This document shows, in pieces, positions 32,961 through 52,327 of a DNA stretch of 64,000 nt. Where the stretch lies: assembly GCA_964415885.1 (NCBI GenBank), contig CAYQCE010000006.1, positions 18,467-82,466 of the forward strand. The letters are read 5' to 3'. Each line of letters begins with the position of its first letter. Within the stretch, counting starts at the first letter, position 1. Source of the stretch: an uncultured Ignavibacteria bacterium (lineage in GTDB: Bacteria > Zixibacteria > MSB-5A5 > JAABVY01 > JAHJOQ01). Under the pieces are notes generated by a model that saw only the letters and a list, made by a program, of their open reading frames with translations, had not been told where the DNA came from and searched no databases. Position numbers and translations under genes: made by a program.

Positions 32961-33175
32961 ACTGTATAGTCTCCTCATGATATGTAGAATTTCCACCGTA
33001 AATCATAGACTCAATTTGGCACAATTCTACGTAAGTTGAATTCCTCACGCAAGATGTTTCTTGACATAATTGAGCCATAACACCGAGGCGGGCGATTCTG
33101 TTTCAGAAAAGACTAGAACTGTAGGACCCGGTATCAGATTTTCGCTCCGACACGGCGAGCCACGAGCCGCTTCAT

Positions 33176-33493
33176 CTACATGGTGAAGTATCGCTCGCCC
33201 GAGATAATCTTCTCGAGCATCTTGAGGGTCTTCTCCACCGGAGCATGCATGAGATCGTGAGTGTTTAGCGTGCCCTTGGCCTTCTCACGCCGATACTCAA
33301 CCCCATTTGCGCCCTTCAGCCGCTGCTTCTTTTTGTGAGTGAGATTATACAATCTCTGATACTCTCTTGCTTTTTCGCGATGTGCCAGATAATACTTTCT
33401 CTGGTACTCAGCGCGCGCGGCCTTAATTTCCTCAGGAGTCATGTCCTTTTTGCTCTTGCGGCGCTTGGGTTTAGAGATTTGGATCTTTCCCAT
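33176..33493 (-). CDS. small basic hypothetical protein
   Basis: 105 aa, Lys/Arg-rich and helical, with no family recognised. Confidence 0.4.
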   Translation of the reverse strand: MGKIQISKPKRRKSKKDMTPEEIKAARAEYQRKYYLAHREKAREYQRLYNLTHKKKQRLKGANGVEYRREKAKGTLNTHDLMHAPVEKTLKMLEKIISGERYFTM

Positions 33494-33796: not shown

Positions 33797-34435
33797 TCAG
33801 GAGAAATAACTCACCACCATGTAGTACCAAGACTCGATAAATGCTATCCTCTGTACGAAAAGTGAAACTCGAGCCATTACCGTATATCCGAAACTCGATC
33901 CGAATCCGAGCATAAGGATCCAGATTCCGAATTTCGCCGCGCCTCCGAATGCTCCCTTGTGTTCCTTCGAAAAGAAGAAGTACATGAGCCCCGTGAGTAC
34001 ACCGATCACTATAACTATATTCCAAAACTCTGTCAAGGAGGCAAAGCCAAGATTGAGGTCCAAAGTTGCAGAAAGCTGTCTGTTCACACTGTTGTACATG
34101 TAAAGCGGTATTGCAACACCGGACGTGCCAATATAGAATGCGATCGGATAGCGTGATAGCCACGCCAGTTTCTTCGAAAACCTGAACCACATCATTGCGC
34201 CGAGGAGTCCCGGAATGAGGTACCACCATTCACCGGCGATCACCGGATCGAACAGCTTCGGCTTGAGACTGTTCAGTACCAGGAGGACGGCGAAATAGCC
34301 TGCTCCGACACCGACAACCAGATGCTCTGCAAATTTGTAAAACGGGTTGTCCTTATACAGAAAGCTGAACGTCGCGATTGTCAAAAGCACCGCGAGTGTC
34401 GTCCATAAGAGTTCTACAGTCGGGCCATCTTCCAT
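33797..34435 (-). CDS. module copy 3, protein D: 6-TM membrane protein (uncharacterised family)
   Basis: 212 aa. It shares FLYKDNPxYKFxE, FFFSKEHKGAFGGAAK and FGxSFGYTVMARxSL motifs with 37215..37958 and 40814..41503. Confidence 0.7.
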   Translation of the reverse strand: MEDGPTVELLWTTLAVLLTIATFSFLYKDNPFYKFAEHLVVGVGAGYFAVLLVLNSLKPKLFDPVIAGEWWYLIPGLLGAMMWFRFSKKLAWLSRYPIAFYIGTSGVAIPLYMYNSVNRQLSATLDLNLGFASLTEFWNIVIVIGVLTGLMYFFFSKEHKGAFGGAAKFGIWILMLGFGSSFGYTVMARVSLFVQRIAFIESWYYMVVSYFS

Positions 34436-34450
34436 TTACCTCACCTCCTC

Positions 34451-35302
34451 CTACAGCTTAATTTTCTTCTTACGATCGGACATAAGATATCCGATGTTTC
34501 CAATTAGGATGAACAGCACGATGGTCAGATGCGCGACGACCTGTGCAGGCATACCCTGGTTGGCGTCCGCTTCCTGTCCGACAAGCTGTTCATACTCTGC
34601 AGCACCCACCCAGCCTCCAATAAGGCCGAAGAGTGCGTTGCCGAGATATGGATAGTAGTCGGTGGCCATAACTCCGGTCACCCCGAGAGCGAGAGGCATA
34701 TCGTATCTCGCGTTGCCGTAGATGATCCACATATCGGATGTCGTACCTGATGTTATCGTTACGACCCCCTTAAGGTCATCGTAGTTTCGCACCCTATGCA
34801 TGATCGGGAGCTCATCGAGAGGAGTGTCGTAATAGTCTCTCGGGAAAAACACGCGGAAGTTCTCGCCCATTCCGAGGATCACAAATGCCGGGTATGGACG
34901 ATACCCGAGGAAGCAGTAATCCTCGCCATAGACGACCTCTCGGCCATATATCTCCGCTGCATCCTCCGAGACCTCCCGTGTCACCTGCTCTACCATACCT
35001 GCGCCGTACTGCGAAAGAGTGACGGTGACTACCTTAACACCTTTTCGGAAACAGTGCAGCATGATAGCGCGTGACATGGGATGCAGCTCAGCGAGAGAAC
35101 TGGGGTCGTAATCGAACGACATCAGTATCTTCTCTCCAGGCTCCGCATTCTCGATAAAGTTGTATATAGACTTGACCTCATCGGTGGTTACCACTCCCAC
35201 GGTAAACACGCTTCTCAGGAAGTACGCCATTGACACAACGACGAACAGGAAGAGAAAGACCCAGCGCCTGTCAAGTTCTACCATTCTTTCAAATATATTC
35301 AT
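34451..35302 (-). CDS. module copy 3, protein C: bitopic protein with N- and C-terminal TM helices and ~220-aa periplasmic domain
   Basis: 283 aa, paralogous to 37955..38857 and 41505..42368. Shared segments include SFDYDPS..EL.PM..A and GLLGG..GAAEYE. Confidence 0.7.
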   Translation of the reverse strand: MNIFERMVELDRRWVFLFLFVVVSMAYFLRSVFTVGVVTTDEVKSIYNFIENAEPGEKILMSFDYDPSSLAELHPMSRAIMLHCFRKGVKVVTVTLSQYGAGMVEQVTREVSEDAAEIYGREVVYGEDYCFLGYRPYPAFVILGMGENFRVFFPRDYYDTPLDELPIMHRVRNYDDLKGVVTITSGTTSDMWIIYGNARYDMPLALGVTGVMATDYYPYLGNALFGLIGGWVGAAEYEQLVGQEADANQGMPAQVVAHLTIVLFILIGNIGYLMSDRKKKIKL

Positions 35303-35314
35303 ACCGGCATCCTC

Positions 35315-35938
35315 CTAATCTCTACCGAGGTAAGCCCGTTCAATGCCGAGCATGATTTTGAGTGCAGTTGCGACCGCTCCGAGACCGATTCCGATAATGA
35401 TCGCGCGCTTGGCGGCCAGATTCGGGACCTTAAGAATCCATGTAGCGAGATTAGCAACCGGTTCCGAGATGAATCCCATCGGAACGAATCTGATCATTAT
35501 AACCAGGCCCGCAATAAGGAGCAAAGTCGCCAGAACCGATCTGGCCCGGAATGCCCTGAATGCGGCAGAGGCTATAAAGAAAGCGAGCAATGAGAACATT
35601 GTTGCCTGGATCGGAACCAGAATATGGAAGAAAAAGTGCTCGTACACATAGTTGTTCAGATTTCCACCGCCGGGGAAAAAGCCAAAGATCAGCATCACGA
35701 AAAGTCCGACGAGTGTAACAACTGCGAATCCCCAGTTCTCCGATCTACGGCTGATTTTCCCCCAGTTTACCCGAAGAAGTGACCAAATTCCGAGCAACAG
35801 GGCGAACACGCCGATAACAATTGTCCAGTCGATCAGGTACTGGTACATCCAGGCCCAACTGTCGAGCGGGACGAAATACTGGACGACCATGAACACACTG
35901 ACCATGAACACCATTATCAAGGGAATCCGTTGTTTCAT
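35315..35938 (-). CDS. module copy 3, protein B: 6-TM membrane protein (uncharacterised family)
   Basis: 207 aa. It shares SAxFRAFRARxV.ATLLLIAG, NLAxxRAIxIGIxLG and LGIERxYLG motifs with 38866..39549 and 42368..43021. Confidence 0.7.
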   Translation of the reverse strand: MKQRIPLIMVFMVSVFMVVQYFVPLDSWAWMYQYLIDWTIVIGVFALLLGIWSLLRVNWGKISRRSENWGFAVVTLVGLFVMLIFGFFPGGGNLNNYVYEHFFFHILVPIQATMFSLLAFFIASAAFRAFRARSVLATLLLIAGLVIMIRFVPMGFISEPVANLATWILKVPNLAAKRAIIIGIGLGAVATALKIMLGIERAYLGRD

Positions 35939-35950
35939 AACATATCCTCC

Positions 35951-37189
35951 TTACAGATTCACCCTGACAATTTCGCGGAAGCCCTCCCAGCCGAGTGCGA
36001 CTGCGACAACTCCCACCGCCAACAATACCATCACTATCGCCTTGCCCCAGTCCTCGGCTTTGAGCGACCCGAGAAGCAACGGGTCTCTTCCGAGATACGC
36101 CGAGGCGGCATAGAGTTCTTCGCCGATCAGCGTGTAGTCGCATGCCACGACGAAGAACGGAATTTGCGTAACCTGATCGGTACCGGCAATCTGAATTGCA
36201 CCGATTGCGTTACCCGTCTCCGCGAGAATCAGGGATTCTGCAGCGAAGTAACCCAGGTAGAAGTTCGTAGCCGGGAGATCACGAACCATGATACCGTTCA
36301 CACCCGCGACATACGCGAACTGCGCGTTTGTCACGAAGTAGACCTGATCGTCGGAATACTGATCAGGACGACCGGCTTCGAGATATGACGACTTTACGAC
36401 ATCCTGCGCGACCGACATAACGATCGGGTCGTAGCACGGCACGATCAGGTCTGTCTGATATTCCGCGACCTTCTTTGCGACCCTGCCGAGAATAGTAAAC
36501 GACGCGATCGTCGCAATCTCGGCGGCGGTTCCAATTCCGAGAACATACAGTATGGGCTTCCCCATCTCCGTAGCTCTGCCGATAGCCTCATCCACAGCCT
36601 CGATTCCCGCAAGCGGTCTGACAAACAGATCCTTGCCCTTCTTGGCTACCTGGATGAAGTATATCGTGAACGCCGTGAAGAGAAGTACAGCGACAAGTAC
36701 CGGGACCTTGCCAGTGTGGAACCACTGGCCTTTTGCCTGGAAAGGCCCACCGATTTCCGACTCGGTTGTCTGACCTTCCTCGCCTATAGCCACCACCTTG
36801 TAGTAGTAATCCTTGTCGTTGGCCAGGTAATCTTCATTTGCCGGATCGCTGTCCCCGATATCGAAGTACTCGAAGAAAGTCGACGGGGACCGACCTCGCA
36901 ACTTGAACTCACCGTCCGGAGACTCTGCCCGATAGACCTTGAAGTGATCGATCATATCGACGGCCTCCTCCGGATACTCCCATATGACAGTGAGCTTGTG
37001 CCCGTTGTCGTTGGGATGATCCTTGCCGGAGACAATCACCGGTTTTGGTGGAGGTTCTGTCTCTGCCGGTTGCATGAGCGTATCAGCACCCTCTTCTGCC
37101 GGTTCATCCTGCGCCATTACTGCGGCAGGAATCATCAACAGAAGGAGCAGTGCTGAAAGGAAACACGGAAATATGTACTTCATACGCAA
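35951..37189 (-). CDS. module copy 3, protein A: signal peptide + FN3-like periplasmic domain + TM + conserved cytoplasmic domain + C-terminal TM
   Basis: 412 aa, paralogous to 39556..40812 and 43025..44266. The cytoplasmic core IQIAGT....Q.PFFV.ACDYTLIGEELYAASAYL is nearly invariant. The periplasmic part has a Y.YRV/YYYKVVA FN3-like signature. Confidence 0.7.
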   Translation of the reverse strand: MRMKYIFPCFLSALLLLLMIPAAVMAQDEPAEEGADTLMQPAETEPPPKPVIVSGKDHPNDNGHKLTVIWEYPEEAVDMIDHFKVYRAESPDGEFKLRGRSPSTFFEYFDIGDSDPANEDYLANDKDYYYKVVAIGEEGQTTESEIGGPFQAKGQWFHTGKVPVLVAVLLFTAFTIYFIQVAKKGKDLFVRPLAGIEAVDEAIGRATEMGKPILYVLGIGTAAEIATIASFTILGRVAKKVAEYQTDLIVPCYDPIVMSVAQDVVKSSYLEAGRPDQYSDDQVYFVTNAQFAYVAGVNGIMVRDLPATNFYLGYFAAESLILAETGNAIGAIQIAGTDQVTQIPFFVVACDYTLIGEELYAASAYLGRDPLLLGSLKAEDWGKAIVMVLLAVGVVAVALGWEGFREIVRVNL

Positions 37190-37214
37190 CCTCGATGGAT
37201 TTGTAGTGAACTTA

Positions 37215-37958
37215 TTATCCGATCATACCGAGCCAGTCGCCGAACAGGTACTGCATTCGTCCGACGAGCAGAGATATACGCGCCATAACCGTATATCCGA
37301 ATGACGCGCCGAAAGTTATCATCAGCACGATGATACCCATCCTGGCTCCTGCACCAAACGCTCCCTTGTGCTCCTTGGAAAAGAAAAAATAGATGAGCCC
37401 ACAGAAAACGCCAATGAATATAACGATGTTCGATAGCGTCTGGCCGAAGTCGAAACCGGCGGCAGACGATATATATAACGAAAAAGTCGTGTTGTTTATC
37501 TGTTGTATAAAATCGGATCTCAGGTACCGCACAAGATTCAGACCTGCAGTGGTTCCGACAATAAATGCCAGCGCCCATCGGGATATCCAGCCCGCATTCG
37601 GCGCGAGCCTCATCAGAAGAAGGATGCCGAGAATGAGCGGGATAATCATGAGCGGTTCCGCGGGATTATCCTTAAGCGCCGGAAGCACCCCACCGACCAT
37701 CGGAGGATAGAGTTTGCCGAAGAGATTTGGCACCATCGTGCCCCAGAATCCCATGCACATCCAGTAGGCGGCACTCACCCCAACGAACAGATGTTCCGCG
37801 AACTTGTAGTACGCGTTATCCTTGTAGAGGAAAGAGAAAATGAACAGCGTCAGAAACGCACCTACCGTTACCAGCGGACCTTTGAGCGCCACGCTGACCG
37901 CGAAAGCGATTATGACAATACCTAACAGAATCCAGGATGCCAGCTTGCTACCGTTCAA
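37215..37958 (-). CDS. module copy 2, protein D: 6-TM membrane protein
   Basis: 247 aa, a paralog of the other D proteins (FLYKDNAYYKFAE, FFFSKEHKGAFGAGAR, FGASFGYTVMARISLLVGR). Confidence 0.7.
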   Translation of the reverse strand: MNGSKLASWILLGIVIIAFAVSVALKGPLVTVGAFLTLFIFSFLYKDNAYYKFAEHLFVGVSAAYWMCMGFWGTMVPNLFGKLYPPMVGGVLPALKDNPAEPLMIIPLILGILLLMRLAPNAGWISRWALAFIVGTTAGLNLVRYLRSDFIQQINNTTFSLYISSAAGFDFGQTLSNIVIFIGVFCGLIYFFFSKEHKGAFGAGARMGIIVLMITFGASFGYTVMARISLLVGRMQYLFGDWLGMIG

Positions 37959-38857
37959 AGCCGCCCTCCTTCGATTCCGTCTGTCTTGTGTTTCCTCCGA
38001 TGTAAGAAGTAGAGCACATTGCCGAATATTATGAAGAAGATTATGACCATGTGCGAAACTGTCTGGGATACCATCAGGCTCATCCCGGCCATCCAGCGAT
38101 CCTTGTACTTCGGATACTGAGTAATGAGCGCATTCTCGTATTCAGCGGCTCCTTTCGCTCCACCGAGAAGGCCGATCAACTGATTCGGATAGTACGGATA
38201 CAGAAGCGGCGCGGAGACCGCGGTACATCCACCTCCAACCGGAACATCACCCGGATCACCCGCATAGAGCACCCATTCCTTGATACCAGGGAATCCGCCA
38301 CCGAATGAGACGATCAAATCGAAATTCCTTACGTTGTTGATATTCTTCATCATCGGAATGGAGTCGATTGCGGTACCTTTGGCATCGGTGGAGTACATTC
38401 GCTTGAAATCGACCAAGAGCAGCCGAATAAGCCCCTGATTACCAGCTTTGTAGCCGAGGTTCACATAGTCCTCGCCGTACTCATAACCGGGAAACTCCGG
38501 ACGCAGTATGGTTTCTATTGTCTCGCCGGTAATGTTATGACCTGTCGCCCAGACAGCCATCATATACAGCCTGCAGTTTCGCTCTGCCAAGTGCCGCACC
38601 AAGGCGTCTGCCATTGGTTGAATCTCGGGAGCGGTTGTCGGGCCGTAATCGAAGGACAGGAGCACTCTCGAGTCTTCCGGCAGATTCTCGACGTAGTCAA
38701 AGAAAGCCTGCACGATCGGAGTGGTCTCCTCTTTCATCGTTGCACCGACCAGCAGCGGTATTACGACGGCAAATGCGATGAAGACGAAGATAATCCGCCT
38801 GTCGATAAATTGAAGTCTCTCGACCATACTCTGTTTATTTGTTTCGTTCGCCGCCAT
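37955..38857 (-). CDS. module copy 2, protein C: bitopic periplasmic-domain protein
   Basis: 300 aa, a paralog of the other C proteins. It overlaps the D gene by 4 nt. Confidence 0.7.
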   Translation of the reverse strand: MAANETNKQSMVERLQFIDRRIIFVFIAFAVVIPLLVGATMKEETTPIVQAFFDYVENLPEDSRVLLSFDYGPTTAPEIQPMADALVRHLAERNCRLYMMAVWATGHNITGETIETILRPEFPGYEYGEDYVNLGYKAGNQGLIRLLLVDFKRMYSTDAKGTAIDSIPMMKNINNVRNFDLIVSFGGGFPGIKEWVLYAGDPGDVPVGGGCTAVSAPLLYPYYPNQLIGLLGGAKGAAEYENALITQYPKYKDRWMAGMSLMVSQTVSHMVIIFFIIFGNVLYFLHRRKHKTDGIEGGRL

Positions 38858-38865
38858 ATATCAAC

Positions 38866-39549
38866 CTAATCCGTATCCTGTCCGAGATATGTTCGCTCGA
38901 CGCCGAGGATAACTCGCAACGACATCGAAATAACCCCCAGTGCAATGCCGATCATAATTGCTCTCTGCCCGGCAAGGTTCGGCACGTCCATTATCCAGTT
39001 TGCCATTGTCGGTATCTGGAGGAACGACCAGCCACCTGTCAGATCCTGAGTAAGCCAGAGTCCGAACGGGGTCCGTCCGAGCAGGATTATAAACGCCGCT
39101 ATTAGCAGAATCGTGGCCTCGATGTTCTTGGCGCGAAATGCGCGATATGATGCCGATCCGACGAAGAACGCCAGGAGTGCGAACATAGAAGCCTGAAGCG
39201 GCGTAAAGATGTACAAATATAGATCGTTGAAGAGTGAGCCGAAAGCCGCAACGTCGCCCTGAATCCCATCCGGATTGTTAATCTTGAATATTCCAGCCGC
39301 AAGCATTACGAGAAATCCTCCGAGCGTCACCAGCGAAAACGGCCAGTCTTCCTTCTTCCGGTTGACTTTTGTCAGGTGCACGCGAACGAGATTGCCGCCG
39401 CCCAGGAGGAACGCAAAGACCGCGATGATATCGAAATAGAGCGAGAAATCATCCCCGAGGTTGCCGAACGGCTTGTGCGGGATGAAATCCGCGAGAACCA
39501 GAACGGTTCCAACGATGAATGTTATTGCAAGCGGTACGGTTCGTTTCAT
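38866..39549 (-). CDS. module copy 2, protein B: 6-TM membrane protein
   Basis: 227 aa, a paralog of the other B proteins. Confidence 0.7.
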   Translation of the reverse strand: MKRTVPLAITFIVGTVLVLADFIPHKPFGNLGDDFSLYFDIIAVFAFLLGGGNLVRVHLTKVNRKKEDWPFSLVTLGGFLVMLAAGIFKINNPDGIQGDVAAFGSLFNDLYLYIFTPLQASMFALLAFFVGSASYRAFRAKNIEATILLIAAFIILLGRTPFGLWLTQDLTGGWSFLQIPTMANWIMDVPNLAGQRAIMIGIALGVISMSLRVILGVERTYLGQDTD

Positions 39550-39555
39550 TTCAGA

Positions 39556-40812
39556 CTAACTCGCTGAGAATATCGATCTAAATGTTTTAGCCAGCGACAG
39601 CAGGCTTTCAGAATTGGCTATTGTCGCAACCGTGAAAAGCCCGCATCCTATTATAATGGCGGCCATCGCTATCATCTTACCAACATCCTGCCCCTTGAGA
39701 GACCCGAGCTGTTTCGGTTCGCCTGAGAGATATGCCGATGCCGCAAATAGCTCCTCACCGATTAGAGTATAGTCGCACGCGGCAACAAAGAACGGAAGCT
39801 GCGCGGGCATTGCTGTGCCGGCGATCTGTATTGCCCCGATCGAGTTACCGGTCTCCGCCATAATCAGTGACTCCGCGAAAAACGCACCCAGATAGAAACA
39901 TGTAGCGGGCTTCTCACGGACCATGATACCGTCGACTGCGGCGACATACCCGAACTGCTCGTCGGTCAGGTAATGAACCATGTCGTCAGAGTAAGCCTCC
40001 GGTCTGCCCGCAGCGACATACGCCTGCTTGACAGTCTCACGCGCGGTGGTCATAACGATCGATCGCGAGACCGGCATGTTGAGCTTTGTATCATAATTTG
40101 CTATTGTCCTTGCAATTCTGCCGAGGATTGTTATTCCAGCAACCGTCTGGACATCATCCATATCGAGAATGCCGGGAATGAAAAGAATGGGACGTCCCAT
40201 CTCGGTCGCACGTCCAATCGCTTCGTCAACCGCCTCGAGACCCGCGATCTTTCGCAGATAGAGCTTCTTGCCTTTTTGGGCAGCGAAGATGAAGAATATG
40301 ACCGAGACAGAGATTATCAGGCCAATGATGAATGTGTCGAGGTCTTTGATGCTGAACCACTGCGCGGATGATGTAACAGGGCGTGAAATCGACGATCTCG
40401 AGGATTCCCCGTCCGCAAAAGTTTCGACGTAGTAATAGTATTCCTCGCCATCGGTCGTGGTCGCATCCTCGAATTCGGTCAGTCCCCTCGAGGCTGAACC
40501 GATGACCTCGAACGGTCCGGTCGGGCTTTGGCTGCGGTAAATGACGTACGAAGTCACATTATCATCGCCTGCGCCGTCATCGGGTGACAATGTCCACGAA
40601 ACATGAATCGAACTACCCGCATCGCCCGGATTGTCCTGCACGACATCGATCCTGGCCGGCTCGGGCGGATCGGCGGGCATGGCTTCCTCGACCGCCATCG
40701 CGGTATCCACCATCGTAGTATCAGGAGTGTCTTCCTCCTGCGCGAGCACCGAAACATGCGCAAAGGCAAAAAACGCGAGTATCGCGAGTATTTTGATACC
40801 CAGACTCTTCAT
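39556..40812 (-). CDS. module copy 2, protein A: FN3/TM/cytoplasmic-domain protein
   Basis: 418 aa with signal peptide MKSLGIKILAILAFFAFAHVSVLA. It is a paralog of the other A proteins. Confidence 0.7.
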   Translation of the reverse strand: MKSLGIKILAILAFFAFAHVSVLAQEEDTPDTTMVDTAMAVEEAMPADPPEPARIDVVQDNPGDAGSSIHVSWTLSPDDGAGDDNVTSYVIYRSQSPTGPFEVIGSASRGLTEFEDATTTDGEEYYYYVETFADGESSRSSISRPVTSSAQWFSIKDLDTFIIGLIISVSVIFFIFAAQKGKKLYLRKIAGLEAVDEAIGRATEMGRPILFIPGILDMDDVQTVAGITILGRIARTIANYDTKLNMPVSRSIVMTTARETVKQAYVAAGRPEAYSDDMVHYLTDEQFGYVAAVDGIMVREKPATCFYLGAFFAESLIMAETGNSIGAIQIAGTAMPAQLPFFVAACDYTLIGEELFAASAYLSGEPKQLGSLKGQDVGKMIAMAAIIIGCGLFTVATIANSESLLSLAKTFRSIFSAS

Positions 40813-40813
40813 A

Positions 40814-41503
40814 TCAACTGAATGTCCCTATAAACCATGTGTTGACCAGAAAATCGAGCCTTCCGATCAGAAGCGACATACGGCTCATCACAGTGTATCC
40901 GAATGACGCCCCGAATGTTATCATCAGGAACCATGTACCCACCTTGGCTGCTCCGCCGAAGAAACCCCGGTGCTCCTTCGAGAAAAAGAAGTACACGAGA
41001 CCGGTAAATGTCCCCACCAGTATAAGGGCATTTCCGAATCCATGCCAGAAATCTCTTACCGGTTCCACACCTCCGGCGTCGGAAATCGGCCCGAATATCG
41101 GAACGATCGTGTTGTATATCTGGACCACGCCGTTGGATACGAGATAGTTGATGAACTGTAGTCCTGCGGTCGCGCCGACAACCAGCGCAAGCGGCCATCT
41201 CGAAATCCAACCTATCGGCGGCACGAGCCGCATGAGCATCATCAGGCCGAAGATGCCGGCGATCACGTAGAGCAGTCCGTCGGTGATCTCGCCGCGCGCG
41301 AAGAGCGCCTCGAGTGCGGGCCAGAGATTGTCCCAGAGCTTCGATACCAGATTCTGCCAGAAGAGCGACACAAACCAGTAGCCGGCCGAGAGGCCGACGA
41401 AAATAGCCTCGGAGATCTTATACCATGGATTGTCCTTGTACAGGAAAGACATGATCCCGAGCGTAAGAAATGCGGCTATCCAGACTCCGATATCGAAAGT
41501 CAT
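40814..41503 (-). CDS. module copy 1, protein D: 6-TM membrane protein
   Basis: Start taken at MTFDIGVW (41503), 1 nt after the stop of the C gene. The longer track ORF runs back into the C gene. Confidence 0.65.
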   Translation of the reverse strand: MTFDIGVWIAAFLTLGIMSFLYKDNPWYKISEAIFVGLSAGYWFVSLFWQNLVSKLWDNLWPALEALFARGEITDGLLYVIAGIFGLMMLMRLVPPIGWISRWPLALVVGATAGLQFINYLVSNGVVQIYNTIVPIFGPISDAGGVEPVRDFWHGFGNALILVGTFTGLVYFFFSKEHRGFFGGAAKVGTWFLMITFGASFGYTVMSRMSLLIGRLDFLVNTWFIGTFS

Positions 41504-41504
41504 A

Positions 41505-42368
41505 TTACTGTTCCACGTCCAGTTTGCTCTTGCCCCTGCCGGTAATGGCATAGGCGAGATTGCCAACGATAATAAAGAAGATCACTATTGCATGCGCGAA
41601 CGTCTGCGACAACATGAAAGTCGTCGCCTTCGCTGTAAACCCGGTTACTTCCTCGAATTCGGCTCCGCCTCTCATTCCGCCCAGAAGCCCCACGAGCTGT
41701 CCGGCGCCAAGGTAGGGATACGCCAGCGGCGCCTGCACGGCGGTGTTACCAGCACCGAGCACGACACCATATCGGTCGACAGCGACCTGCACCCATTCGA
41801 CAGTGCCGGGGTATCCGGCCGAGAAATTGAAAGCGAAATCTATGTTCGAATAGTTCTTAACATTGTTCAGCAGCGGGATATCCTCGTAGCGGTTACCCCG
41901 AACATCCTTGGAGAAAGCCTCACGGAAGTCCGATCCCATGCGCTGAATCACGAATTCATTCCCTGCCTGGAACCCGAGATTGACGTAATCCACGCCGTAT
42001 TCGATATCTTTGTCTTTAAGCTCCGGACTGGCGAGTGCGCGCTGGATAGATATCTCCGCCTGCTGCGGCCCCTGTGGCCAAAGTCCCATGATGATGAGTT
42101 TGAGATCATTCATGAACGCATACTTGACGGCAGCATCGGCCATCGGCTGAAGCTCAGGTGCAGACGGCGGGTCATAATCGAATGACATCAGGACCTTCGA
42201 ACCGGGTGGAAGGTTCTCGTAAGCCTCAAAGAGACCTGCGGTTTCGGGTGATATGAGAAGCTCGTATTCAACGGCCATGAACGGCAGCATGGGCAAGAGG
42301 AGAGAGATGCCGACGAAGAGGAATATCCATCGTCGGTCGATGGCAAGCATTTTATCCCAGAATCCCAT
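41505..42368 (-). CDS. module copy 1, protein C: bitopic periplasmic-domain protein
   Basis: 287 aa. Its start overlaps the B stop by 1 nt (TGATG). Confidence 0.7.
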   Translation of the reverse strand: MGFWDKMLAIDRRWIFLFVGISLLLPMLPFMAVEYELLISPETAGLFEAYENLPPGSKVLMSFDYDPPSAPELQPMADAAVKYAFMNDLKLIIMGLWPQGPQQAEISIQRALASPELKDKDIEYGVDYVNLGFQAGNEFVIQRMGSDFREAFSKDVRGNRYEDIPLLNNVKNYSNIDFAFNFSAGYPGTVEWVQVAVDRYGVVLGAGNTAVQAPLAYPYLGAGQLVGLLGGMRGGAEFEEVTGFTAKATTFMLSQTFAHAIVIFFIIVGNLAYAITGRGKSKLDVEQ

Positions 42369-43021
42369 CAGTCGCCTCCCCCGAGGTAGGACCTCTCTAT
42401 TCCGAGAATTATCCGCAGTGCAGTCGAAACAGTTCCGAGTGCAATACCGATCATAATAGCTCGCTGGCCGGCGAGATTAGGATAGTTCATTATAAAAGAG
42501 GATATCTCGGACAACGGCTGGAAATCCTGCACCCATGGTCCGAAAATAATGTCATCGAACAGCACTCGTCCCATCATGACAAGAAATCCTGCCACCAGAA
42601 GCAGCGTTGCCTGCACATTTCTCGCCCTGAAGGCTCGATATGATGCTGATGCCACGAAGAACGCGAGGATCGCGAACATTGTGGCAGACAGCGGTGTGTA
42701 GATATTCACATACAACCAATCGAACGCGGTGCCCGGTGTCTGGAATCCGCGGCCTCCCGCGAATCCGGCAATTGCCATCGCAAGCCAGGAAATGATGATT
42801 ATTATCGAGTACGGCCAGTCTTTTTGCTGACGCTGCACTTTGATGATCGACAGTTTCAGGAGATTGAGCGCGCCGAGCCATATTGCGCACGCAGCAATTA
42901 TGAAAAACCAGTCAGAGAATAGCTGTTCGAATTTGTCGAATGGCGAGTGCGGTATAAAATACTGCACAACGAATGCTATCCCGACAACCGCCGTTATTAT
43001 GAGTGGTATCTCTCGTCTCAT
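42368..43021 (-). CDS. module copy 1, protein B: 6-TM membrane protein
   Basis: 217 aa, a paralog of the other B proteins. Confidence 0.7.
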   Translation of the reverse strand: MRREIPLIITAVVGIAFVVQYFIPHSPFDKFEQLFSDWFFIIAACAIWLGALNLLKLSIIKVQRQQKDWPYSIIIIISWLAMAIAGFAGGRGFQTPGTAFDWLYVNIYTPLSATMFAILAFFVASASYRAFRARNVQATLLLVAGFLVMMGRVLFDDIIFGPWVQDFQPLSEISSFIMNYPNLAGQRAIMIGIALGTVSTALRIILGIERSYLGGGD

Positions 43022-43024
43022 AAC

Positions 43025-44266
43025 CTAATTCGCTGTCACTTTAAACAGACTCGCGAAGTCGTATATTCCGAGTGTTTGAATTATGACTCCGATTGCTATC
43101 ACTGCCAGAATAACTCCCTTGCCGACATCCTGCCCCTTAAGCGATCCGAGGAGTTTCGGTTCCTTCGACAGATACGCCGAAGCTGCGAAGAGTTCCTCGC
43201 CGATCAACGTGTAATCGCATGCCGCGACGAAAAACGGCAACTGTGCCGGCATGGCTGTCCCGGCTATCTGTATCGCGCCTATGGAATTTCCAGTCTCTGC
43301 GAGAATCAGAGATTCGGCATAGAACGCGCCCATGTAGAACATGGTAGCGGGCTTCTCGCGCACCACCATTCCGTCGATAGCGGCCGCATATCCAAACTGA
43401 TCGTCAGTCAAATAGTGTACCGTATCCTCGTGAAATGCATCCGGGCGTCCGGCATTCAGATACGCTTCCCTCACAATCTCTCGCGCGGTTACCATGACGA
43501 GCGAACGCGAAACCGGGACATCAAGAGCAGTGTCATACTGCGCAGCGAGCCGTGCCACGCGGCCGAGTATTGTCACTCCGGCAATTGTCTGGATATTTTC
43601 CATATCCTGAGTGCCCGGCACATAGAATATCTTCTTCCCCATCTCCGTTGCGCGTCCCACAGCCTCATCAACCGCCTCAAGTCCTGCGATCTTGCGGATA
43701 AACAGCTCCTTGCCCTTGCGAGCCTGAGAGATGTAGTAGATGATCAGAGACCCGATCACGATTGCGAAGATCAACACAATCGTACGATTTGTGTTGAACC
43801 ACTGTGCTTTGGCTTTAACCGAGCCTGACGGCTCCGAGTAGGATTTCATCTCAACCCATTCGCCGGGAGCCTGCTCAACCCTGTCAACCGTGACTATGCG
43901 ATAGACATACTCGACGCCATTTTCGGCGTAATTGTCGGTGATTCTGGTCTGACCGGATGTCGCGTTGCCCATCACTTCGTAGGTTGCATCGTCAGCGTTT
44001 ATCTCTTTTCGTTCAATATCATAACGGTCGATGACCCCGTTGGTATCATCCGGGGACAACTCCCAGTGAATCTGGATCGAGCCTCCGTGATCGTTGGGAG
44101 TATCATTAGCAGTGACGTTGGCAGCAGGGCGTGGAGCCTCGGGCAGAGACTCAAGCATCTCCGTCTCAGCAAGGGTATCCGTCACAACCCGTGTCGTATC
44201 TTCCTGCGCAAACGCGAACGCACAGGAGACAGAGAGAATCAATATCGTTACAACGGCTTTCTTCAT
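43025..44266 (-). CDS. module copy 1, protein A: FN3/TM/cytoplasmic-domain protein (first gene of 12-gene operon)
   Basis: Start taken at MKKAVVTILILSVSCAFAFA (signal peptide). The 20-codon N-terminal extension in the ORF track is a translation of the upstream terminator hairpin. Confidence 0.7.
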   Translation of the reverse strand: MKKAVVTILILSVSCAFAFAQEDTTRVVTDTLAETEMLESLPEAPRPAANVTANDTPNDHGGSIQIHWELSPDDTNGVIDRYDIERKEINADDATYEVMGNATSGQTRITDNYAENGVEYVYRIVTVDRVEQAPGEWVEMKSYSEPSGSVKAKAQWFNTNRTIVLIFAIVIGSLIIYYISQARKGKELFIRKIAGLEAVDEAVGRATEMGKKIFYVPGTQDMENIQTIAGVTILGRVARLAAQYDTALDVPVSRSLVMVTAREIVREAYLNAGRPDAFHEDTVHYLTDDQFGYAAAIDGMVVREKPATMFYMGAFYAESLILAETGNSIGAIQIAGTAMPAQLPFFVAACDYTLIGEELFAASAYLSKEPKLLGSLKGQDVGKGVILAVIAIGVIIQTLGIYDFASLFKVTAN

Positions 44267-44289
44267 AATTGTGCTGACTACTAAAGAAA

Positions 44290-44320
44290 AGAGACCGTCA
44301 ATAAAGAGCGGACGGTCTCT
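44290..44320 (-). terminator. intrinsic-terminator-like hairpin in the leader of the 12-gene operon (candidate attenuator)
   Basis: A perfect 10-bp stem AGAGACCGTC/GACGGTCTCT with an 11-nt loop is followed on the - strand by TTTTCTTT. The hairpin ends 15 nt before the ATG of the first operon gene. Confidence 0.5.
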
Positions 44321-44461: not shown

Positions 44462-45589
44462 TTAAGCTTCGATCAGTTCAACGTTTGCGCGCGGAATGAT
44501 CGCCTTCTCACCGTCCTCGAATTCGACACCCAGAATACGAGCCATCGACTCCGACTCGAGCTTGTGAAGTTCCGGCTGCAGATCGGTCACCTTGCCGAGC
44601 TTGCCGAAGTACGGCTGACGGATCACGCGGATCGGCGATCCGATTCCGAGGCCGGCGGACTTCTCCTCGTCCTCGTCCGACATAACACGCTTTTCGCCCT
44701 CGAAGGGGATTACGACTTCGGGACGAATGACACCCGCACGGATCTGCGTGGCACCGTTTATACAGGCCATCATCCCTTCCTTCGACTTGAGAAGCTCAAA
44801 TGTGCGTCCGGCCATCATAATCTCGCCGAAACCCTCGGTAACCACGAGTGAAACACCGACATCCTCGTTGCCGGTGATCGCGACACCGATGTCCTGGCCG
44901 AGGAAATCACGGAGATCCTGGTCATCAAATCCACCTACGACAATGCCCTTGGCCTTGACATCGACGGCCTTGCGGATAGCATCGGCGGTAACGAGACTGC
45001 CACCGACAATCACTTTGTCCTTGCAGGAGTCATCGATCAGAGAATCGGTCAGGACCTGGCTGCTGTTGTCGACTACCATCTTGATTTCGCCGTGTGTCTC
45101 GCCACCGATTCCGAAAATACCCTGCACGAACGTGCCGACTGTCTCGACGACTACGCCCTCCGTCTCGATAACCTCCTTAACCGTGCCGTCGAGATAGGCT
45201 TTCACCTCGACAGGTATCGGATGTCCGCGGAGCAGTACCTGTCCGGTAACGTTCGAGACATTCTCCACGCTGCCGTCGATTTTGGACTTCGCCTCGGACT
45301 TGAACAGACCGAAGAAGCTCTTGGTCATGGCGATGGTCTCGCCTTTTTCGATCGGCTCGCCTTCCTTTTTGAGCATTGCATCCGGTACATCCTCCGGCGG
45401 AAGACCGAGAATGTTCGCAACATTCATCGGCTCGACGTTTCCAGGAAGGTCCGTCCGGGCAACCACTGTGTCCGGTTCCACACTGTCACCGACTTTGACG
45501 ACAACTTCGCCCTTGAGCGGGAGGATTCTCCGTTTCCGGATAACCATCTTCTCCGTGACTTTCAGGCCGGGCGTATATGCATGAGCCAT
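44462..45589 (-). CDS. conserved hypothetical protein (375 aa, Gly/Val-rich beta-type), partner of the ASKHA ATPase
   Basis: Clean ORF with no TM helices. It lies 62 nt downstream of the ASKHA-ATPase gene on the same strand. No family is recognisable from sequence. Confidence 0.5.
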   Translation of the reverse strand: MAHAYTPGLKVTEKMVIRKRRILPLKGEVVVKVGDSVEPDTVVARTDLPGNVEPMNVANILGLPPEDVPDAMLKKEGEPIEKGETIAMTKSFFGLFKSEAKSKIDGSVENVSNVTGQVLLRGHPIPVEVKAYLDGTVKEVIETEGVVVETVGTFVQGIFGIGGETHGEIKMVVDNSSQVLTDSLIDDSCKDKVIVGGSLVTADAIRKAVDVKAKGIVVGGFDDQDLRDFLGQDIGVAITGNEDVGVSLVVTEGFGEIMMAGRTFELLKSKEGMMACINGATQIRAGVIRPEVVIPFEGEKRVMSDEDEEKSAGLGIGSPIRVIRQPYFGKLGKVTDLQPELHKLESESMARILGVEFEDGEKAIIPRANVELIEA

Positions 45590-47801: not shown

Positions 47802-48764
47802 ATGAGAATCCTCATTGTCGGTCCGATACCTCCGCCCTACGGCGGGATATCGGTGTATGTCTACCGCCTGGCACACAGGCTTACCCGCGAGGGACACATT
47901 GTCCGAATTGTAGACTACGGCAGGAAGTCCCGGTTCGGACGCTTGCTCGCGCTGATTAACATCCTGCTCTCACGAAAAGACTATATCCACGTCAACTGCA
48001 GCTCTACCGGCATAGCGTTGCTGTTGACCTGGTCGCGACTCTCGCGCAAAACGCAGTTCACCGCGCACGGTGAGGGAATCCGGGGGTGGAGCAGGCGTAA
48101 ACTCAAGATTATGGACAGAGTCCTGAGGCGATGTGATACCGTAATGCTTGTCGGCGACCATCTTAAGAAGCTCTATGACGATTATCTGAGCGAACCTCTG
48201 CACAATATAAAGATAAACAGCGCGTTCATACCGCCGCCGCCGGAAGATGAGGCTGGTATACTTGCTTTATACTCGGAGGCAACCAAAACCTTCGTGGACC
48301 AACACAAACCTCTGATGATCGCCAATGCGTACAGGATCGAGTTTCACGACAACACCGACTTGTACGGTATCGATATGTGCATTGATCTCGTCGAGAGGCT
48401 GAAACCGGACTACCCGAACATAGGTCTGCTATTCGCTCTGGCTGATATTGGAGACTACCAGTATTTCGACGGCATGAAGCGCAAAGTCTCCGATGCTGGT
48501 TTGAATGAGAACTTTCTCTTTCTGACCGGTCAGAAAGAGCTATGGCCCCTTTTCAAGAAAGCTGACCTGATGGTACGCCCGACATGCGTCGACGGCTTCG
48601 GGATCAGCATCGCAGAGGCGCTTCACTTCGGCTGCCCGGCTGTTGCGAGCGATGTCTGCGCACGCGCCAAAGGGACGAGAGTATTCCGAAACCGCAACTT
48701 GGATGATTTTGAAAGAAGATGTCGCATAGCGCTTGAAGAAAAGATCGAAACCACGGTCAATTGA
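47802..48764 (+). CDS. glycosyltransferase (GT4-like, short form)
   Basis: 320 aa with an N-terminal Rossmann fold (MRILIVGPIPPPYGGISVY). The C-terminal half has a GT-B EX7E-like region (FGISIAEALHFGCPAVASD). Confidence 0.5.
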   Translation: MRILIVGPIPPPYGGISVYVYRLAHRLTREGHIVRIVDYGRKSRFGRLLALINILLSRKDYIHVNCSSTGIALLLTWSRLSRKTQFTAHGEGIRGWSRRKLKIMDRVLRRCDTVMLVGDHLKKLYDDYLSEPLHNIKINSAFIPPPPEDEAGILALYSEATKTFVDQHKPLMIANAYRIEFHDNTDLYGIDMCIDLVERLKPDYPNIGLLFALADIGDYQYFDGMKRKVSDAGLNENFLFLTGQKELWPLFKKADLMVRPTCVDGFGISIAEALHFGCPAVASDVCARAKGTRVFRNRNLDDFERRCRIALEEKIETTVN

Positions 48765-48770
48765 CGCGGA

Positions 48771-52318: not shown

Positions 52319-52327
52319 TGCGGTAAG

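What the first reader, a model, noticed from the sequence alone, without database searches (positions are those of the whole stretch)
33797..44266. Twelve-gene operon made of three tandem paralogous copies of an uncharacterised four-gene membrane module
Three successive A-B-C-D gene sets lie on the - strand at 43025-40814, 40812-37215 and 37189-33797. Each set encodes the following four proteins.
(A) A ~415-aa protein with signal peptide, FN3-like periplasmic domain, TM helix, a highly conserved ~230-aa cytoplasmic domain (IQIAGT...PFFVAACDYTLIGEELFAASAYL) and a C-terminal TM.
(B) A ~215-aa 6-TM protein (ASYRAFRARN..ATLLL, NLAGQRAIMIGIALG, ILGIERSYLG).
(C) A ~290-aa bitopic protein with a large periplasmic domain.
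(D) A ~230-aa 6-TM protein (FLYKDNPxYKF, FFFSKEHKGAFGG, FGASFGYTVMAR).
The genes are separated by 0-25 nt or overlap (TGATG, ATGA), implying a single translationally coupled transcript. No ATPase, Walker motif or known transporter signature is present. I could not place any of the four proteins in a described family. A conserved envelope-spanning module triplicated in tandem suggests a multi-subunit membrane machine (transport, motility or cell-surface assembly) with subfunctionalised paralogous units.
Basis: seen in the sequence. Interest (0 to 1): 0.9.

Follow-up and report, generated by a model that had tools for sequence, protein, structure and literature searches.

The report
Triplicated uncharacterised membrane module with ATPase
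Twelve genes in this Zixibacteria-like genome are three ancient copies of a four-gene inner-membrane module found across more than ten bacterial phyla, usually next to an actin-fold ATPase, and no part of it has a known function.

Summary
Twelve co-directional, tightly packed genes (33797-44266, minus strand) form three paralogous A-B-C-D sets. Within each protein type identity is 30-55% (BLASTP E 1e-41 to 1e-147), and there is no similarity between types.

- **A:** signal peptide, FN3, TM helix, Pfam DUF6754 (E 1e-126), TM helix.
- **B, C, D:** no Pfam, NCBIfam, PADLOC or PDB sequence relative.

The A-B-C-D order is kept in 70 of 80 reference-genome loci, with no order violation. Those loci span Zixibacteria, WOR-3, Fermentibacteria, Cloacimonadota, Gemmatimonadota, Acidobacteriota, Planctomycetota and other phyla. 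The module is mostly single-copy elsewhere. The 1-2-3 triplication is positionally conserved within Zixibacteria, so it is ancient.

One is a GlmL/MutL-family actin-fold (ASKHA) ATPase and the other is a 375-aa barrel-sandwich/swivel/KOW protein (U375). Both are syntenic with ABCD across phyla.

The A paralogs keep a near-identical cytoplasmic DUF6754 domain (59-93%) but have divergent periplasmic FN3 domains (25-37%).

My best reading is an ATP-dependent inner-membrane complex of two-membrane (diderm) bacteria that acts on the cell envelope. In this genome one cytoplasmic ATPase pair would serve three periplasmically specialised modules. The anatomy and distribution are well supported. The function is inferred, not shown. 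I found no publication describing the system.

The parts
45652..47517 (-). GlmL/MutL-family ASKHA (actin-fold) ATPase, 621 aa, with a ~130-aa C-terminal extension beyond the family profile
   Evidence: Pfam PF13941 E 8.6e-133 covering residues 13-489. It falls below all NCBIfam GlmL cut-offs. The ASKHA motifs DCGSTTTK, DIGGATTD and GSGGV are present, and each is kept in 20-24 of 24 orthologs. It is syntenic with ABCD in many phyla. No PDB sequence relative.
44462..45589 (-). U375: conserved cytoplasmic 375-aa protein with an N-terminal barrel-sandwich hybrid, a swivelling beta/beta/alpha-like middle domain and a C-terminal KOW/SH3-like barrel
44283..44320 (-). Terminator/attenuator-like hairpin: 10-bp stem, 11-nt loop, then UUUUCUUU, ending 17 nt before the A1 start codon
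   Evidence: Sequence. RNA fold -18.7 kcal/mol, z -3.45, 0 of 200 shuffles fold as well. Analogous hairpins with a U-run lie between U375 and A in other Zixibacteria and in Fermentibacteria/Aegiribacteria loci.
43025..44266 (-). A1: signal peptide, FN3 (periplasm), TM, DUF6754 alpha/beta domain (cytoplasm), TM
42368..43021 (-). B1: 217-aa protein with six TM helices
   Evidence: Hydropathy. No Pfam, NCBIfam or PDB relative. Family alignment invariants include R129, N182, R187 and R210.
41505..42368 (-). C1: 287 aa; N-terminal TM, ~220-aa periplasmic domain, C-terminal TM
   Evidence: Hydropathy and K/R distribution. No Pfam or PDB relative, singly or across 36 orthologs.
40814..41503 (-). D1: 229-aa polytopic membrane protein (the ATG at 41503 is preferred to the TTG at 41566)
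   Evidence: The exact 229-aa product is on record in public gene calls. No family or PDB relative. Conserved motifs SFLYKDNPxYKxxE, YFFFSKEHKG and FGASFGYTVMAR.
39556..40812 (-). A2, paralog of A1 (55% identity)
   Evidence: PF20539 E 2e-124; BLASTP E 2.7e-147.
38866..39549 (-). B2, paralog of B1 (48%)
37955..38857 (-). C2, paralog of C1 (40%)
37215..37958 (-). D2, paralog of D1 (50%); its TTG start overlaps the C2 stop codon (TTGA)
35951..37189 (-). A3, paralog of A1 and A2 (45-47%); the start is TTG 37189 or ATG 37183
   Evidence: PF20539 E 8.8e-120
35315..35938 (-). B3, the most divergent B copy (40-41%)
34451..35302 (-). C3, paralog of C1 and C2 (30-32%)
33797..34435 (-). D3, paralog of D1 and D2 (41-42%)

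Best explanation
**What is shown.** The 12 genes are three anciently duplicated copies of a conserved four-gene inner-membrane module:
- A: periplasmic FN3, TM, cytoplasmic Rossmann-like DUF6754 domain, TM.
- B: six TM helices.
- C: TM, periplasmic alpha/beta domain, TM.
- D: polytopic membrane protein.

The module belongs to a larger, widespread and uncharacterised system. That system's cytoplasmic part is a GlmL-like ASKHA-fold ATPase plus the U375 barrel-sandwich/swivel/KOW protein. In many genomes two small proteins, n3 and n1, are also part of it.

**What is inferred.** A, B, C and D assemble into one inner-membrane complex. The extremely conserved cytoplasmic DUF6754 domain of A is the docking or transduction site for the shared ATPase/U375 pair. 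ATP-driven conformational change is passed through the membrane subunits to the variable periplasmic parts. These are FN3 here, multiple FN3 domains or a BamB-like beta-propeller in relatives, plus the C domain. The periplasmic parts engage an envelope or outer-membrane target.

In Zixibacteria one ATPase pair would serve three modules whose periplasmic and transmembrane parts have diverged, giving three specificities. The hairpin between U375 and A1 would set or regulate the ratio of the soluble pair to the membrane modules.
For: - **Paralogy and layout:**
- **Unit conservation:** 70 of 80 genome loci from more than 10 phyla carry a complete A-B-C-D run, with 0 order violations.
- **Family size:** 863 clusters at 50% identity with E <= 1e-30.
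- **Link to the ATPase pair:** GlmL/U375 lie within 10 kb in 25 of 49 informative ABCD loci. ABCD lies within 10 kb of U375 in 28 of 37 informative metagenome loci, often as n3-n1-GlmL-U375-ABCD.
- **ATPase competence:** the ASKHA nucleotide-binding motifs are conserved.
- **Shared cytoplasmic partner:** among the A paralogs the DUF6754 domain is 59-74% identical and residues 354-383 are 70-93% identical, against 25-37% for FN3 and 14-28% for the TM helices. The most conserved segment is modelled with low confidence in isolation, as expected for a partner-binding segment. Invariant residues cluster after the beta-strands of the alpha/beta domain.
- **Periplasmic adaptor role:** the N-terminal part of A is swapped for multiple FN3 domains or a BamB-like PQQ_2 propeller in relatives, while DUF6754 stays C-terminal.
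- **Envelope context:**
  - A Tol-Pal-like cluster follows directly downstream of GlmL-n6-U375 in other Zixibacteria.
  - ExbB-ExbD-TonB genes lie near ABCD in WOR-3, Stahlbacteria and Fermentibacteria.
  - lpxB and a PorV-like barrel flank lone U375 genes.
  - A polysaccharide gene cluster lies divergently next to this window's operon.
- **Ancient, retained triplication:**
Against: - No experiment and no homolog of known function exists for A, B, C, D or U375.
- Complex formation among A-D, and contact with GlmL/U375, rest on synteny only. No natural fusions were found; the apparent ones were artefacts.
- About half of ABCD loci lack GlmL/U375 within 10 kb. Some U375 or GlmL-U375 loci lack ABCD. 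The link is strong but not obligatory, and the two gene sets could be functionally separate.
- The envelope-related neighbours differ between phyla and may reflect inherited synteny of housekeeping genes.
- The fold relatives of the DUF6754 domain could not be determined, because FN3 hits swamped both structure searches.
- B, C and D were not modelled.
- The GlmL family's only described role is as an accessory protein of B12-dependent mutases, which is unrelated to membranes.
Confidence: 0.4

Rival explanations
1. Solute transporter. B and D are the permease subunits, the periplasmic domain of C captures substrate, and A is a regulatory or accessory subunit. GlmL/U375 either energise or gate transport, or are unrelated neighbours. 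The three copies import or export three different substrates.
For: The module has two polytopic 6-TM-type proteins plus a membrane-anchored periplasmic alpha/beta domain. This is the general layout of binding-protein-dependent or TRAP/TTT-like systems. Tandem paralogous copies are common for transporters. C is the most divergent component among the paralogs (30-40%), as expected for substrate-binding parts.
Against: B, C and D give no hit to any transporter family in Pfam or NCBIfam, singly or across 36 orthologs, and no PDB sequence hit. The system is usually single-copy and very conserved across phyla, with a highly conserved cytoplasmic domain and ATPase pair. That pattern is more typical of core machinery than of substrate-specific uptake. 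The FN3 and BamB-like propeller modules on A are protein-interaction scaffolds, which is unusual for solute transporters.
Confidence: 0.2
2. Membrane-bound enzyme complex acting on a lipid or lipid-linked glycan. The Rossmann-like DUF6754 domain is the catalytic subunit at the cytoplasmic membrane face. B and D handle or flip the lipid substrate, and C and FN3 act on the periplasmic side.
For: The DUF6754 domain is a five-stranded alpha/beta domain. Its invariant polar and acidic residues sit at the C-terminal ends of the strands, the usual active-site location. It is extremely conserved. Conserved hydrophobic segments lie next to the membrane. Neighbours include lpxB, polysaccharide genes and Tol-Pal. 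One weak Foldseek match is to a HAD-like lipid-binding LNS2 domain (TM-score only 0.2-0.3).
Against: No sequence or profile similarity to any enzyme family. No recognised catalytic motif. The LNS2 match is poor. The role of an ASKHA ATPase plus U375 is not explained.
Confidence: 0.15
3. Morphogenetic or cytoskeletal system analogous to MreB-MreC-MreD. The actin-fold GlmL-like protein polymerises or scaffolds under the membrane, and ABCD are its membrane and periplasmic partners that organise envelope growth or division.
For: The composition is parallel: an actin-fold ATPase, a membrane protein with a periplasmic domain, and polytopic membrane proteins. One lone U375 gene lies next to ftsZ-ftsA-ftsQ-murC. 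Tol-Pal, a division-associated system, is adjacent in Zixibacteria.
Against: No sequence similarity to MreB, MreC, MreD, FtsA or PilM. GlmL belongs to the hydantoinase-like branch of the ASKHA superfamily, which is not known to polymerise (established knowledge; Pfam PF13941 assignment). The dcw-cluster neighbourhood was seen in a single locus.
Confidence: 0.1
4. ABCD is an independent membrane module. GlmL/U375 are a separate cytoplasmic system, for example a cofactor-repair chaperone as proposed for GlmL with B12 mutases, and lie nearby only through inherited gene order.
For: About half of ABCD loci lack GlmL/U375 within 10 kb. Some GlmL-U375 or lone U375 loci lack ABCD. A terminator-like hairpin separates the two sets in several lineages.
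Against: The adjacency recurs in distant phyla (Zixibacteria, Fermentibacteria, Acidobacteriota, Planctomycetota, Marinimicrobia), in both co-directional and divergent arrangements. In Acidobacteriota and Planctomycetota U375 and A are only 5-16 nt apart. No B12-dependent mutase gene is adjacent to the pair in this window (the neighbours are U375 and a glycosyltransferase) or in the inspected related loci.
Confidence: 0.12
5. A known ABC-2/GldFG-type or other described exporter whose ATPase is encoded elsewhere. This is the refutation scenario the first reader proposed.
For: Only the general resemblance: polytopic membrane proteins plus an accessory protein with a periplasmic domain.
Against: B, C and D give no ABC2_membrane, GldF/GldG, FtsX/MacB, MlaE, LptF/G or any other permease family hit at E <= 0.1. 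No ABC ATPase gene flanks the cluster; the flanking genes are U375 and the GlmL-like gene upstream and a 105-aa ORF and PPDK downstream. There is no conserved Walker A motif.
Confidence: 0.03

Closest known systems
Pfam DUF6754 (PF20539)
   Same: A1, A2 and A3 match over the full 257-position profile (E 1e-120 to 1e-126), so they are members of this catalogued family.
   Different: The family has no assigned function, structure or publication (0 papers). The Pfam entry covers only A. The conserved partners B, C, D, U375, n1 and n3 have no family at all.
GlmL/MutL accessory proteins of coenzyme-B12-dependent glutamate mutase (PF13941; NCBIfam NF040745, TIGR01319)
   Same: The upstream 621-aa protein matches PF13941 end to end and keeps the ASKHA phosphate-1, phosphate-2 and adenosine motifs.
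   Different: It scores below every NCBIfam GlmL cut-off (239 vs 475, 224 vs 600, 179 vs 204 bits). It has a ~130-aa C-terminal extension. No mutase gene is adjacent. It is syntenic with a membrane module instead.
Glycerol/diol dehydratase reactivase (GdrAB/DdrAB)
   Same: This system combines an Hsp70-like ASKHA ATPase domain with a 'swiveling' domain that holds and releases a partner subunit on ATP hydrolysis (PMC7674605). Here an ASKHA ATPase is paired with U375, whose middle domain has a swivelling beta/beta/alpha-type fold.
MreB-MreC-MreD elongasome core
   Same: An actin-fold ATPase, a membrane-anchored protein with a periplasmic domain and small polytopic membrane proteins are encoded together.
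   Different: No homology of any component. GlmL-type ASKHA proteins are not known to form filaments.
Na+-NQR / Rnf complexes (NqrA/RnfC with NqrD/E, NqrC/RnfG)
   Different: No Pfam hit to any Rnf/Nqr membrane subunit or to the FMN_bind domain. B and D have no invariant cysteines, and U375 has no invariant Cys or His. No redox-cofactor motif is present.
Tol-Pal and ExbB-ExbD-TonB systems
   Same: These are inner-membrane complexes of diderm bacteria that reach across the periplasm. Their genes are recurrent neighbours of this system in Zixibacteria, WOR-3 and Fermentibacteria.
   Different: No component of ABCD matches MotA_ExbB, ExbD or TonB. The energy source suggested here is ATP through an ASKHA protein, not proton flow through a stator.

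Membership tests
DUF6754 (PF20539) | Score at or above the Pfam gathering threshold (27 bits) over the domain profile | tested here: met
   A1 419 bits, A2 414 bits, A3 399 bits, covering profile positions 2-255 of 257
Fibronectin type III domain | FN3 sequence profile and beta-sandwich fold | tested here: met
GlmL/MutL (PF13941) ASKHA ATPases | Pfam gathering threshold; ASKHA nucleotide-binding motifs | tested here: met
   444 bits vs 27. DCGSTTTK, DIGGATTD and GSGGV are present and conserved in orthologs.
GlmL proper (NCBIfam NF040745 equivalog / TIGR01319 subfamily) | Score above the curated cut-off | tested here: not met
   238.9 vs 475 bits; 223.5 vs 600 (Or-4); 179 vs 204.05
GlmL proper (NCBIfam NF040745 equivalog / TIGR01319 subfamily) | Encoded with a B12-dependent mutase (glutamate, ornithine or lysine aminomutase) | tested here: not met
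   The adjacent genes are U375 and a GT4 glycosyltransferase. No mutase appears in the related loci with precomputed Pfam.
ABC-2 / GldFG-type exporter | Permease matching ABC2_membrane-type profiles | tested here: not met
   No such hit for B or D at E <= 0.1 in Pfam or NCBIfam
ABC-2 / GldFG-type exporter | ABC ATPase with Walker A/B motifs in the operon or nearby | tested here: not met
   No conserved Walker A motif in the 14 proteins. The flanking genes are not ABC ATPases.
MreBCD | MreB, MreC and MreD sequence families | tested here: not met
   No MreB, MreC or MreD Pfam or NCBIfam hit. The only related signal is a sub-threshold MreB-like_C cross-hit at E 0.049 for the ASKHA protein.
Rnf / Na+-NQR | RnfD/NqrB, RnfA/E-NqrD/E and FMN_bind subunit families | tested here: not met
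   No hits for B, C or D. Only the N-terminal barrel-sandwich domain of U375 is weakly RnfC_N/NqrA-like.
Known anti-phage defence systems (PADLOC) | Match to any PADLOC model | tested here: not met
   0 families for A1, B1, C1, D1, U375 and GlmL at E <= 0.01
The ABCD(+GlmL/U375) system proposed here | A-B-C-D gene order conserved as a unit | tested here: met
   70 of 80 genome loci hold a complete run, with 0 order violations
The ABCD(+GlmL/U375) system proposed here | Physical complex of A-D, and contact with GlmL/U375 | not testable with these tools
No natural fusions were found.

The most novel reading that the evidence does not exclude
This is a previously unrecognised, ATP-driven trans-periplasmic machine. 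It would comprise an ASKHA ATPase, a swivel/KOW adaptor and a four-subunit inner-membrane platform with exchangeable periplasmic FN3 or beta-propeller heads. It would be a core envelope system of many diderm phyla (the FCB group, Planctomycetota/Phycisphaerae, Acidobacteriota and others), comparable in rank to Tol-Pal, Lpt or Bam. Zixibacteria would run three specialised versions from a single motor pair.
Probability: 0.25. Interest if true: 0.9.

Novelty: categorically new. Interest (0 to 1): 0.74.

Why it matters
If the reading is right, a large part of bacterial diversity carries a conserved multi-protein membrane system about which nothing is known. The A family alone has about 860 clusters at 50% identity, spread over more than ten mostly uncultured phyla.

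Its parts are unusual for membrane machinery: a hydantoinase/GlmL-type actin-fold ATPase rather than an ABC, AAA+ or proton-driven motor. That would add a new way of coupling cytoplasmic ATP to the periplasm.

It would also assign a first non-B12 context to the GlmL family, and a function to DUF6754 and to at least five unnamed protein families.

The triplicated Zixibacteria version is a natural experiment in specialisation. The cytoplasmic interface is held constant while the periplasmic heads have diverged.

Even if the function proves more modest, such as a transporter, the gene set is a well-defined and testable target for structural genomics.

Tried and rejected
1. **Internal duplication A-B to C-D.** Profile-profile comparison of A vs C and B vs D found no homology (probabilities 10% and 0.7%, and only in TM helices).
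3. **Natural gene fusions (A-B, C-D).** The candidates from my ORF extraction contained an in-frame stop and were artefacts. Representatives with longer C-terminal tails showed no B, C or D similarity.
4. **Literature.** 'DUF6754' and 'PF13941' each returned 0 papers. The GlmL and Zixibacteria queries returned nothing relevant.
5. **Rfam** on the whole window: no family.
6. **PADLOC:** no defence family.
At 30-55% amino-acid identity synonymous sites are saturated. I used region-wise identity and positional orthology instead.
8. **The Walker-A-like string AITGRGKS in C1** is a chance match in a non-conserved cytoplasmic tail and is absent from C2 and C3.
9. **n1 and n3**, the small proteins that precede GlmL in other phyla, are not encoded anywhere in this 64-kb window.
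10. **A flavinylation-type motif in C** was considered from the conserved GGGxTAV. I rejected it because there is no FMN_bind hit and the motif differs from the known one.

Full report

Yes. ORF listing shows twelve consecutive minus-strand genes between 33797 and 44266:
- A1 43025-44266, B1 42368-43021, C1 41505-42368, D1 40814-41503
- A2 39556-40812, B2 38866-39549, C2 37955-38857, D2 37215-37958
- A3 35951-37189, B3 35315-35938, C3 34451-35302, D3 33797-34435

Junctions range from a 4-nt overlap to a 25-nt gap, and several have GGAGG-type ribosome-binding sites.

BLASTP among same-type proteins gives these identities:
- A: 45-55%
- B: 40-48%
- C: 30-40%
- D: 41-50%

E-values run from 1e-41 to 1e-147. 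Different types show no similarity (E > 0.1). Profile-profile comparison of A vs C and of B vs D is also negative. The quoted motifs are present.

C has a second, C-terminal TM helix. D shows 4-6 hydrophobic segments.

The correct start is 44266.

**2. What are the proteins?**

*A.* A1-A3 match Pfam DUF6754 over its whole length (399-419 bits). They also carry an FN3 domain. A family profile hits titin FN3 at E 3e-27.

An AlphaFold2 model of A1 has pLDDT 75 overall. In order, it shows:
- a signal-peptide helix;
- a confident FN3 domain (residues 49-143, pLDDT > 90);
- a TM helix (159-183);
- a five-stranded parallel alpha/beta (Rossmann/flavodoxin-like) domain (196-349);
- a low-confidence but extremely conserved segment (354-376);
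- a final TM helix (378-399).

Invariant residues lie mostly just after the beta-strands. That is the usual ligand or partner site of such folds.

*B, C and D.* None has a Pfam, NCBIfam, PADLOC or PDB sequence relative. This holds for the single sequences, for member-by-member scans of 36 orthologs, and for family profiles.

*Literature.* No paper in the searchable library mentions DUF6754.

**3.

Two further genes lie directly upstream on the same strand.

*The GlmL-like ATPase (45652-47517).* This 621-aa protein matches Pfam MutL/GlmL (PF13941, E 9e-133). That family is a hydantoinase-like branch of the actin/Hsp70/sugar-kinase (ASKHA) ATPases.
- It keeps the phosphate-1, phosphate-2 and adenosine motifs, as do 20-24 of 24 orthologs.
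- It falls below all curated NCBIfam GlmL cut-offs.
- It has a ~130-aa C-terminal extension.
- It has no B12-mutase neighbour.

*U375 (44462-45589).* This 375-aa protein has no family. It is 53-58% identical across phyla.
- Weak per-member Pfam hits indicate an N-terminal barrel-sandwich hybrid (Biotin_lipoyl 12/14, RnfC_N 6/14) and a C-terminal KOW motif.
- Its AF2 model is good (pLDDT 82, pTM 0.70).
- U375 has no invariant His or Cys, so phosphoryl or electron relay is not indicated.

**4. How widespread and how conserved is the unit?**

A1 has more than 8000 homolog clusters at 90% identity. In the exhaustive search of 50%-identity representatives it has 863 hits at E <= 1e-30.

A scan of one genome per species found at least 594 loci. 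Mapping A-D, U375 and GlmL on the best 80 gave these results:
- 70 loci hold a complete A-B-C-D run, and none breaks the order.
- The loci come from Zixibacteria, WOR-3, Stahlbacteria, Fermentibacteria, Aegiribacteria, Cloacimonadota, Marinimicrobia, Gemmatimonadota, Eisenbacteria, Coatesbacteria, Acidobacteriota, Phycisphaerae/Planctomycetota and a deltaproteobacterial MAG.
- 45 loci have one full run, 11 have two and 14 have three.
- The multi-copy loci are Zixibacteria, bins labelled Ignavibacteriales or Ignavibacteria, a few bins with no phylum label, and one Coatesbacteria genome with two runs.

GlmL/U375 lie within 10 kb in 25 of 49 informative ABCD loci.

In the reciprocal scan starting from U375 in metagenomes, 28 of 37 informative loci have ABCD nearby. 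The typical arrangement is n3-n1-GlmL-U375-A-B-C-D. Here n3 (~150 aa, two TM helices) and n1 (~136 aa) are two more family-less proteins.

Nine loci with at least 8 kb on both sides of U375 lack ABCD. Four of them have GlmL with U375. The other five have U375 alone, and in the four I inspected it sits next to housekeeping genes.

n1 and n3 are absent from this window.

**5. The triplication**

In at least eleven Zixibacteria-type loci the three sets are best matched, in order, by window sets 1, 2 and 3. A neighbour-joining tree of the DUF6754 domain shows three Zixibacteria clades.
- Type 2 groups with the single-copy modules of Gemmatimonadota, Eisenbacteria, Planctomycetota and Acidobacteriota.
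- Type 3 sits on a long branch.

The copies are therefore old, retained and non-redundant.

Region-wise identity among A1-A3 is:
- cytoplasmic DUF6754 domain: 59-74%;
- residues 354-383: 70-93%;
- FN3: 25-37%;
- TM helices: 14-28%.

This pattern fits one shared cytoplasmic partner, with set-specific membrane and periplasmic partners.

In other lineages the periplasmic head of A is replaced by several FN3 domains or by a BamB-like PQQ_2 beta-propeller. DUF6754 stays at the C-terminus.

**6. Context clues to function**

- Related Zixibacteria contigs place GlmL-n6-U375 in a string that continues into TolQ-TolR-TolA-TolB-...-YbgF. That string is divergent from (ABCD)x3.
- WOR-3, Stahlbacteria and Fermentibacteria loci have ExbB-ExbD-ExbD-TonB a few genes downstream of D.
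- Lone U375 genes sit between lpxB and a PorV-like outer-membrane barrel.
- In this window the operon is divergent from a polysaccharide cluster: GT4, GNAT, Wzx-like flippase, hexapeptide transferase and SDR.
- All labelled host lineages belong to phyla regarded as diderm. This point rests on established knowledge, not on a test made here.

These hints point to the cell envelope or outer membrane. The neighbours differ by lineage, so the hints are circumstantial.

**7. Mechanism**

*Shown:*
- the gene set and its paralogy;
- the topology and domain folds of A and U375;
- the conserved ATP-binding motifs of the GlmL-like protein;
- the synteny.

*Inferred (confidence about 0.4 for the general model):*
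- A-D form an inner-membrane platform.
- The DUF6754 domain docks the GlmL-like ATPase and U375.
- ATP-driven changes are relayed to periplasmic FN3/propeller heads and to the C domain, which act on an envelope target.
- In this genome one ATPase pair serves three specialised platforms.

A useful analogy of parts is the B12-dehydratase reactivase. It joins an Hsp70-like ATPase domain to a swiveling domain that releases a partner on ATP hydrolysis (PMC7674605). This is a lead, not homology.

A terminator-like hairpin lies at 44283-44320 (-18.7 kcal/mol, z -3.45), 17 nt before the A1 start. Similar hairpins lie between U375 and A in other Zixibacteria and in Fermentibacteria/Aegiribacteria. In Acidobacteriota and Planctomycetota the two genes are 5-16 nt apart. 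The hairpin probably sets or regulates the ratio of the soluble pair to the membrane modules.

**8. Rivals**

- A solute transporter (0.2).
- A membrane enzyme acting on lipid or glycan substrates, with DUF6754 as the catalytic domain (0.15).
- GlmL/U375 functionally unrelated to ABCD (0.12).
- An MreBCD-like morphogenetic system (0.1).
- A known ABC-2/GldFG-type exporter (0.03). This was tested at sequence level and not met.

**9. Novelty and verdict**

No component except the generic FN3 domain and the ASKHA fold can be tied to a characterised system. A is only a DUF. At least five partner families have no family entry in the libraries searched. I found no description in the literature available to me.

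I rate the system categorically new, with two caveats:
- subscription-only literature could not be searched;
- fold-level relationships of DUF6754, B, C and D are still open.

Interest is 0.74. The system is widespread, well delimited and experimentally approachable, and its energy-coupling component is unusual. Its function remains an inference.

Noticed in passing
window 44283-44320 (- strand); also L021, L022, L023, L034, L052, L059, L065, L072 between U375 and A: A terminator/attenuator-like hairpin followed by a U-run sits between U375 and A1, ending 17 nt before the A1 ATG. That leaves no room for a promoter downstream of it. Structurally similar hairpins with unrelated sequences recur at the same position in other Zixibacteria and in Fermentibacteria/Aegiribacteria. 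Acidobacteriota and Planctomycetota have only 5-16 nt there.
   Followed up: partly
L085, L086, L088, L092, L100, L118, L119, L122, L129-L132, L163 and genome loci L018, L022, L023, L035, L053, L059, L077: Two further family-less small proteins directly precede the GlmL-like gene in several phyla. n3 is ~150 aa with two TM helices and a PSRLENFRG motif. n1 is ~136 aa with LTPEQ...VPALMFIESVKPLNFIGSQ. They look like additional system components. Neither is encoded in this 64-kb window.
   Followed up: partly
L082 277-9575, L083 681-9494 (related Zixibacteria contigs): In these relatives GlmL, a 250-aa secreted or anchored protein (n6) and U375 are followed on the same strand by TolQ/ExbB, TolR/ExbD, TolA/TonB_2, TolB and a YbgF-like TPR protein. 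The whole string is divergent from (ABCD)x3. The window has a different arrangement (GlmL-U375 co-directional with ABCD, no n6) and no MotA_ExbB-family (TolQ/ExbB) gene was detected in it.
   Followed up: partly
L145 9965-12007, L152 8726-12006, L103 10001-13952, L137 10001-11724: Some genomes carry U375 alone, with no GlmL or ABCD within 10 kb. In two loci it lies between lpxB and a translationally coupled PorV-like outer-membrane barrel. In one it lies next to ftsZ-ftsA-ftsQ-murC. In one it precedes a cNMP-binding protein and prfA.
   Followed up: partly
P0283, P0292, P0352, P0277, P0310 (A-family representatives); P0244, P0245: Long members of the A family replace the single FN3 domain with a BamB-like PQQ_2 beta-propeller or with several FN3 domains. 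The TM-DUF6754-TM module stays at the C-terminus. A few representatives (P0252, P0269, P0384) have 150-250 extra residues after DUF6754 that resemble none of B, C or D.
   Followed up: partly
window 30024-32996 (- strand): The pyruvate phosphate dikinase-like ORF (990 aa) carries a lysine-rich N-terminal stretch and a ~90-residue lysine/threonine-rich C-terminal tail (KKKTSKTKKTTKK...). That is unusual for this enzyme. An arginine-rich ORF overlaps the tail region in another frame and is probably spurious.
   Followed up: no
window 33176-33493 (- strand): A small basic ORF (105 aa, no Pfam family) lies downstream of D3, with its own promoter-like site (TTGACA-17-TAAATT at 33625-33597). No clear terminator was seen between D3 and this ORF.
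   Followed up: no
window 47802-53885 (+ strand): A polysaccharide-type gene cluster lies divergent from the GlmL-like gene: GT4 glycosyltransferase, a 411-aa protein with no family, a GNAT acetyltransferase, a Wzx-like flippase (Polysacc_synt), a hexapeptide acyltransferase and an SDR.
   Followed up: partly
L036 13198-18319 (WOR-3 chromosome CP070705.1) and L045, L046, L048: Downstream of D in WOR-3 and Stahlbacteria there is a conserved string. It has a DUF4388 protein, two family-less cytoplasmic proteins, two small membrane proteins, then ExbB, two ExbD and a TonB-like protein.
   Followed up: partly
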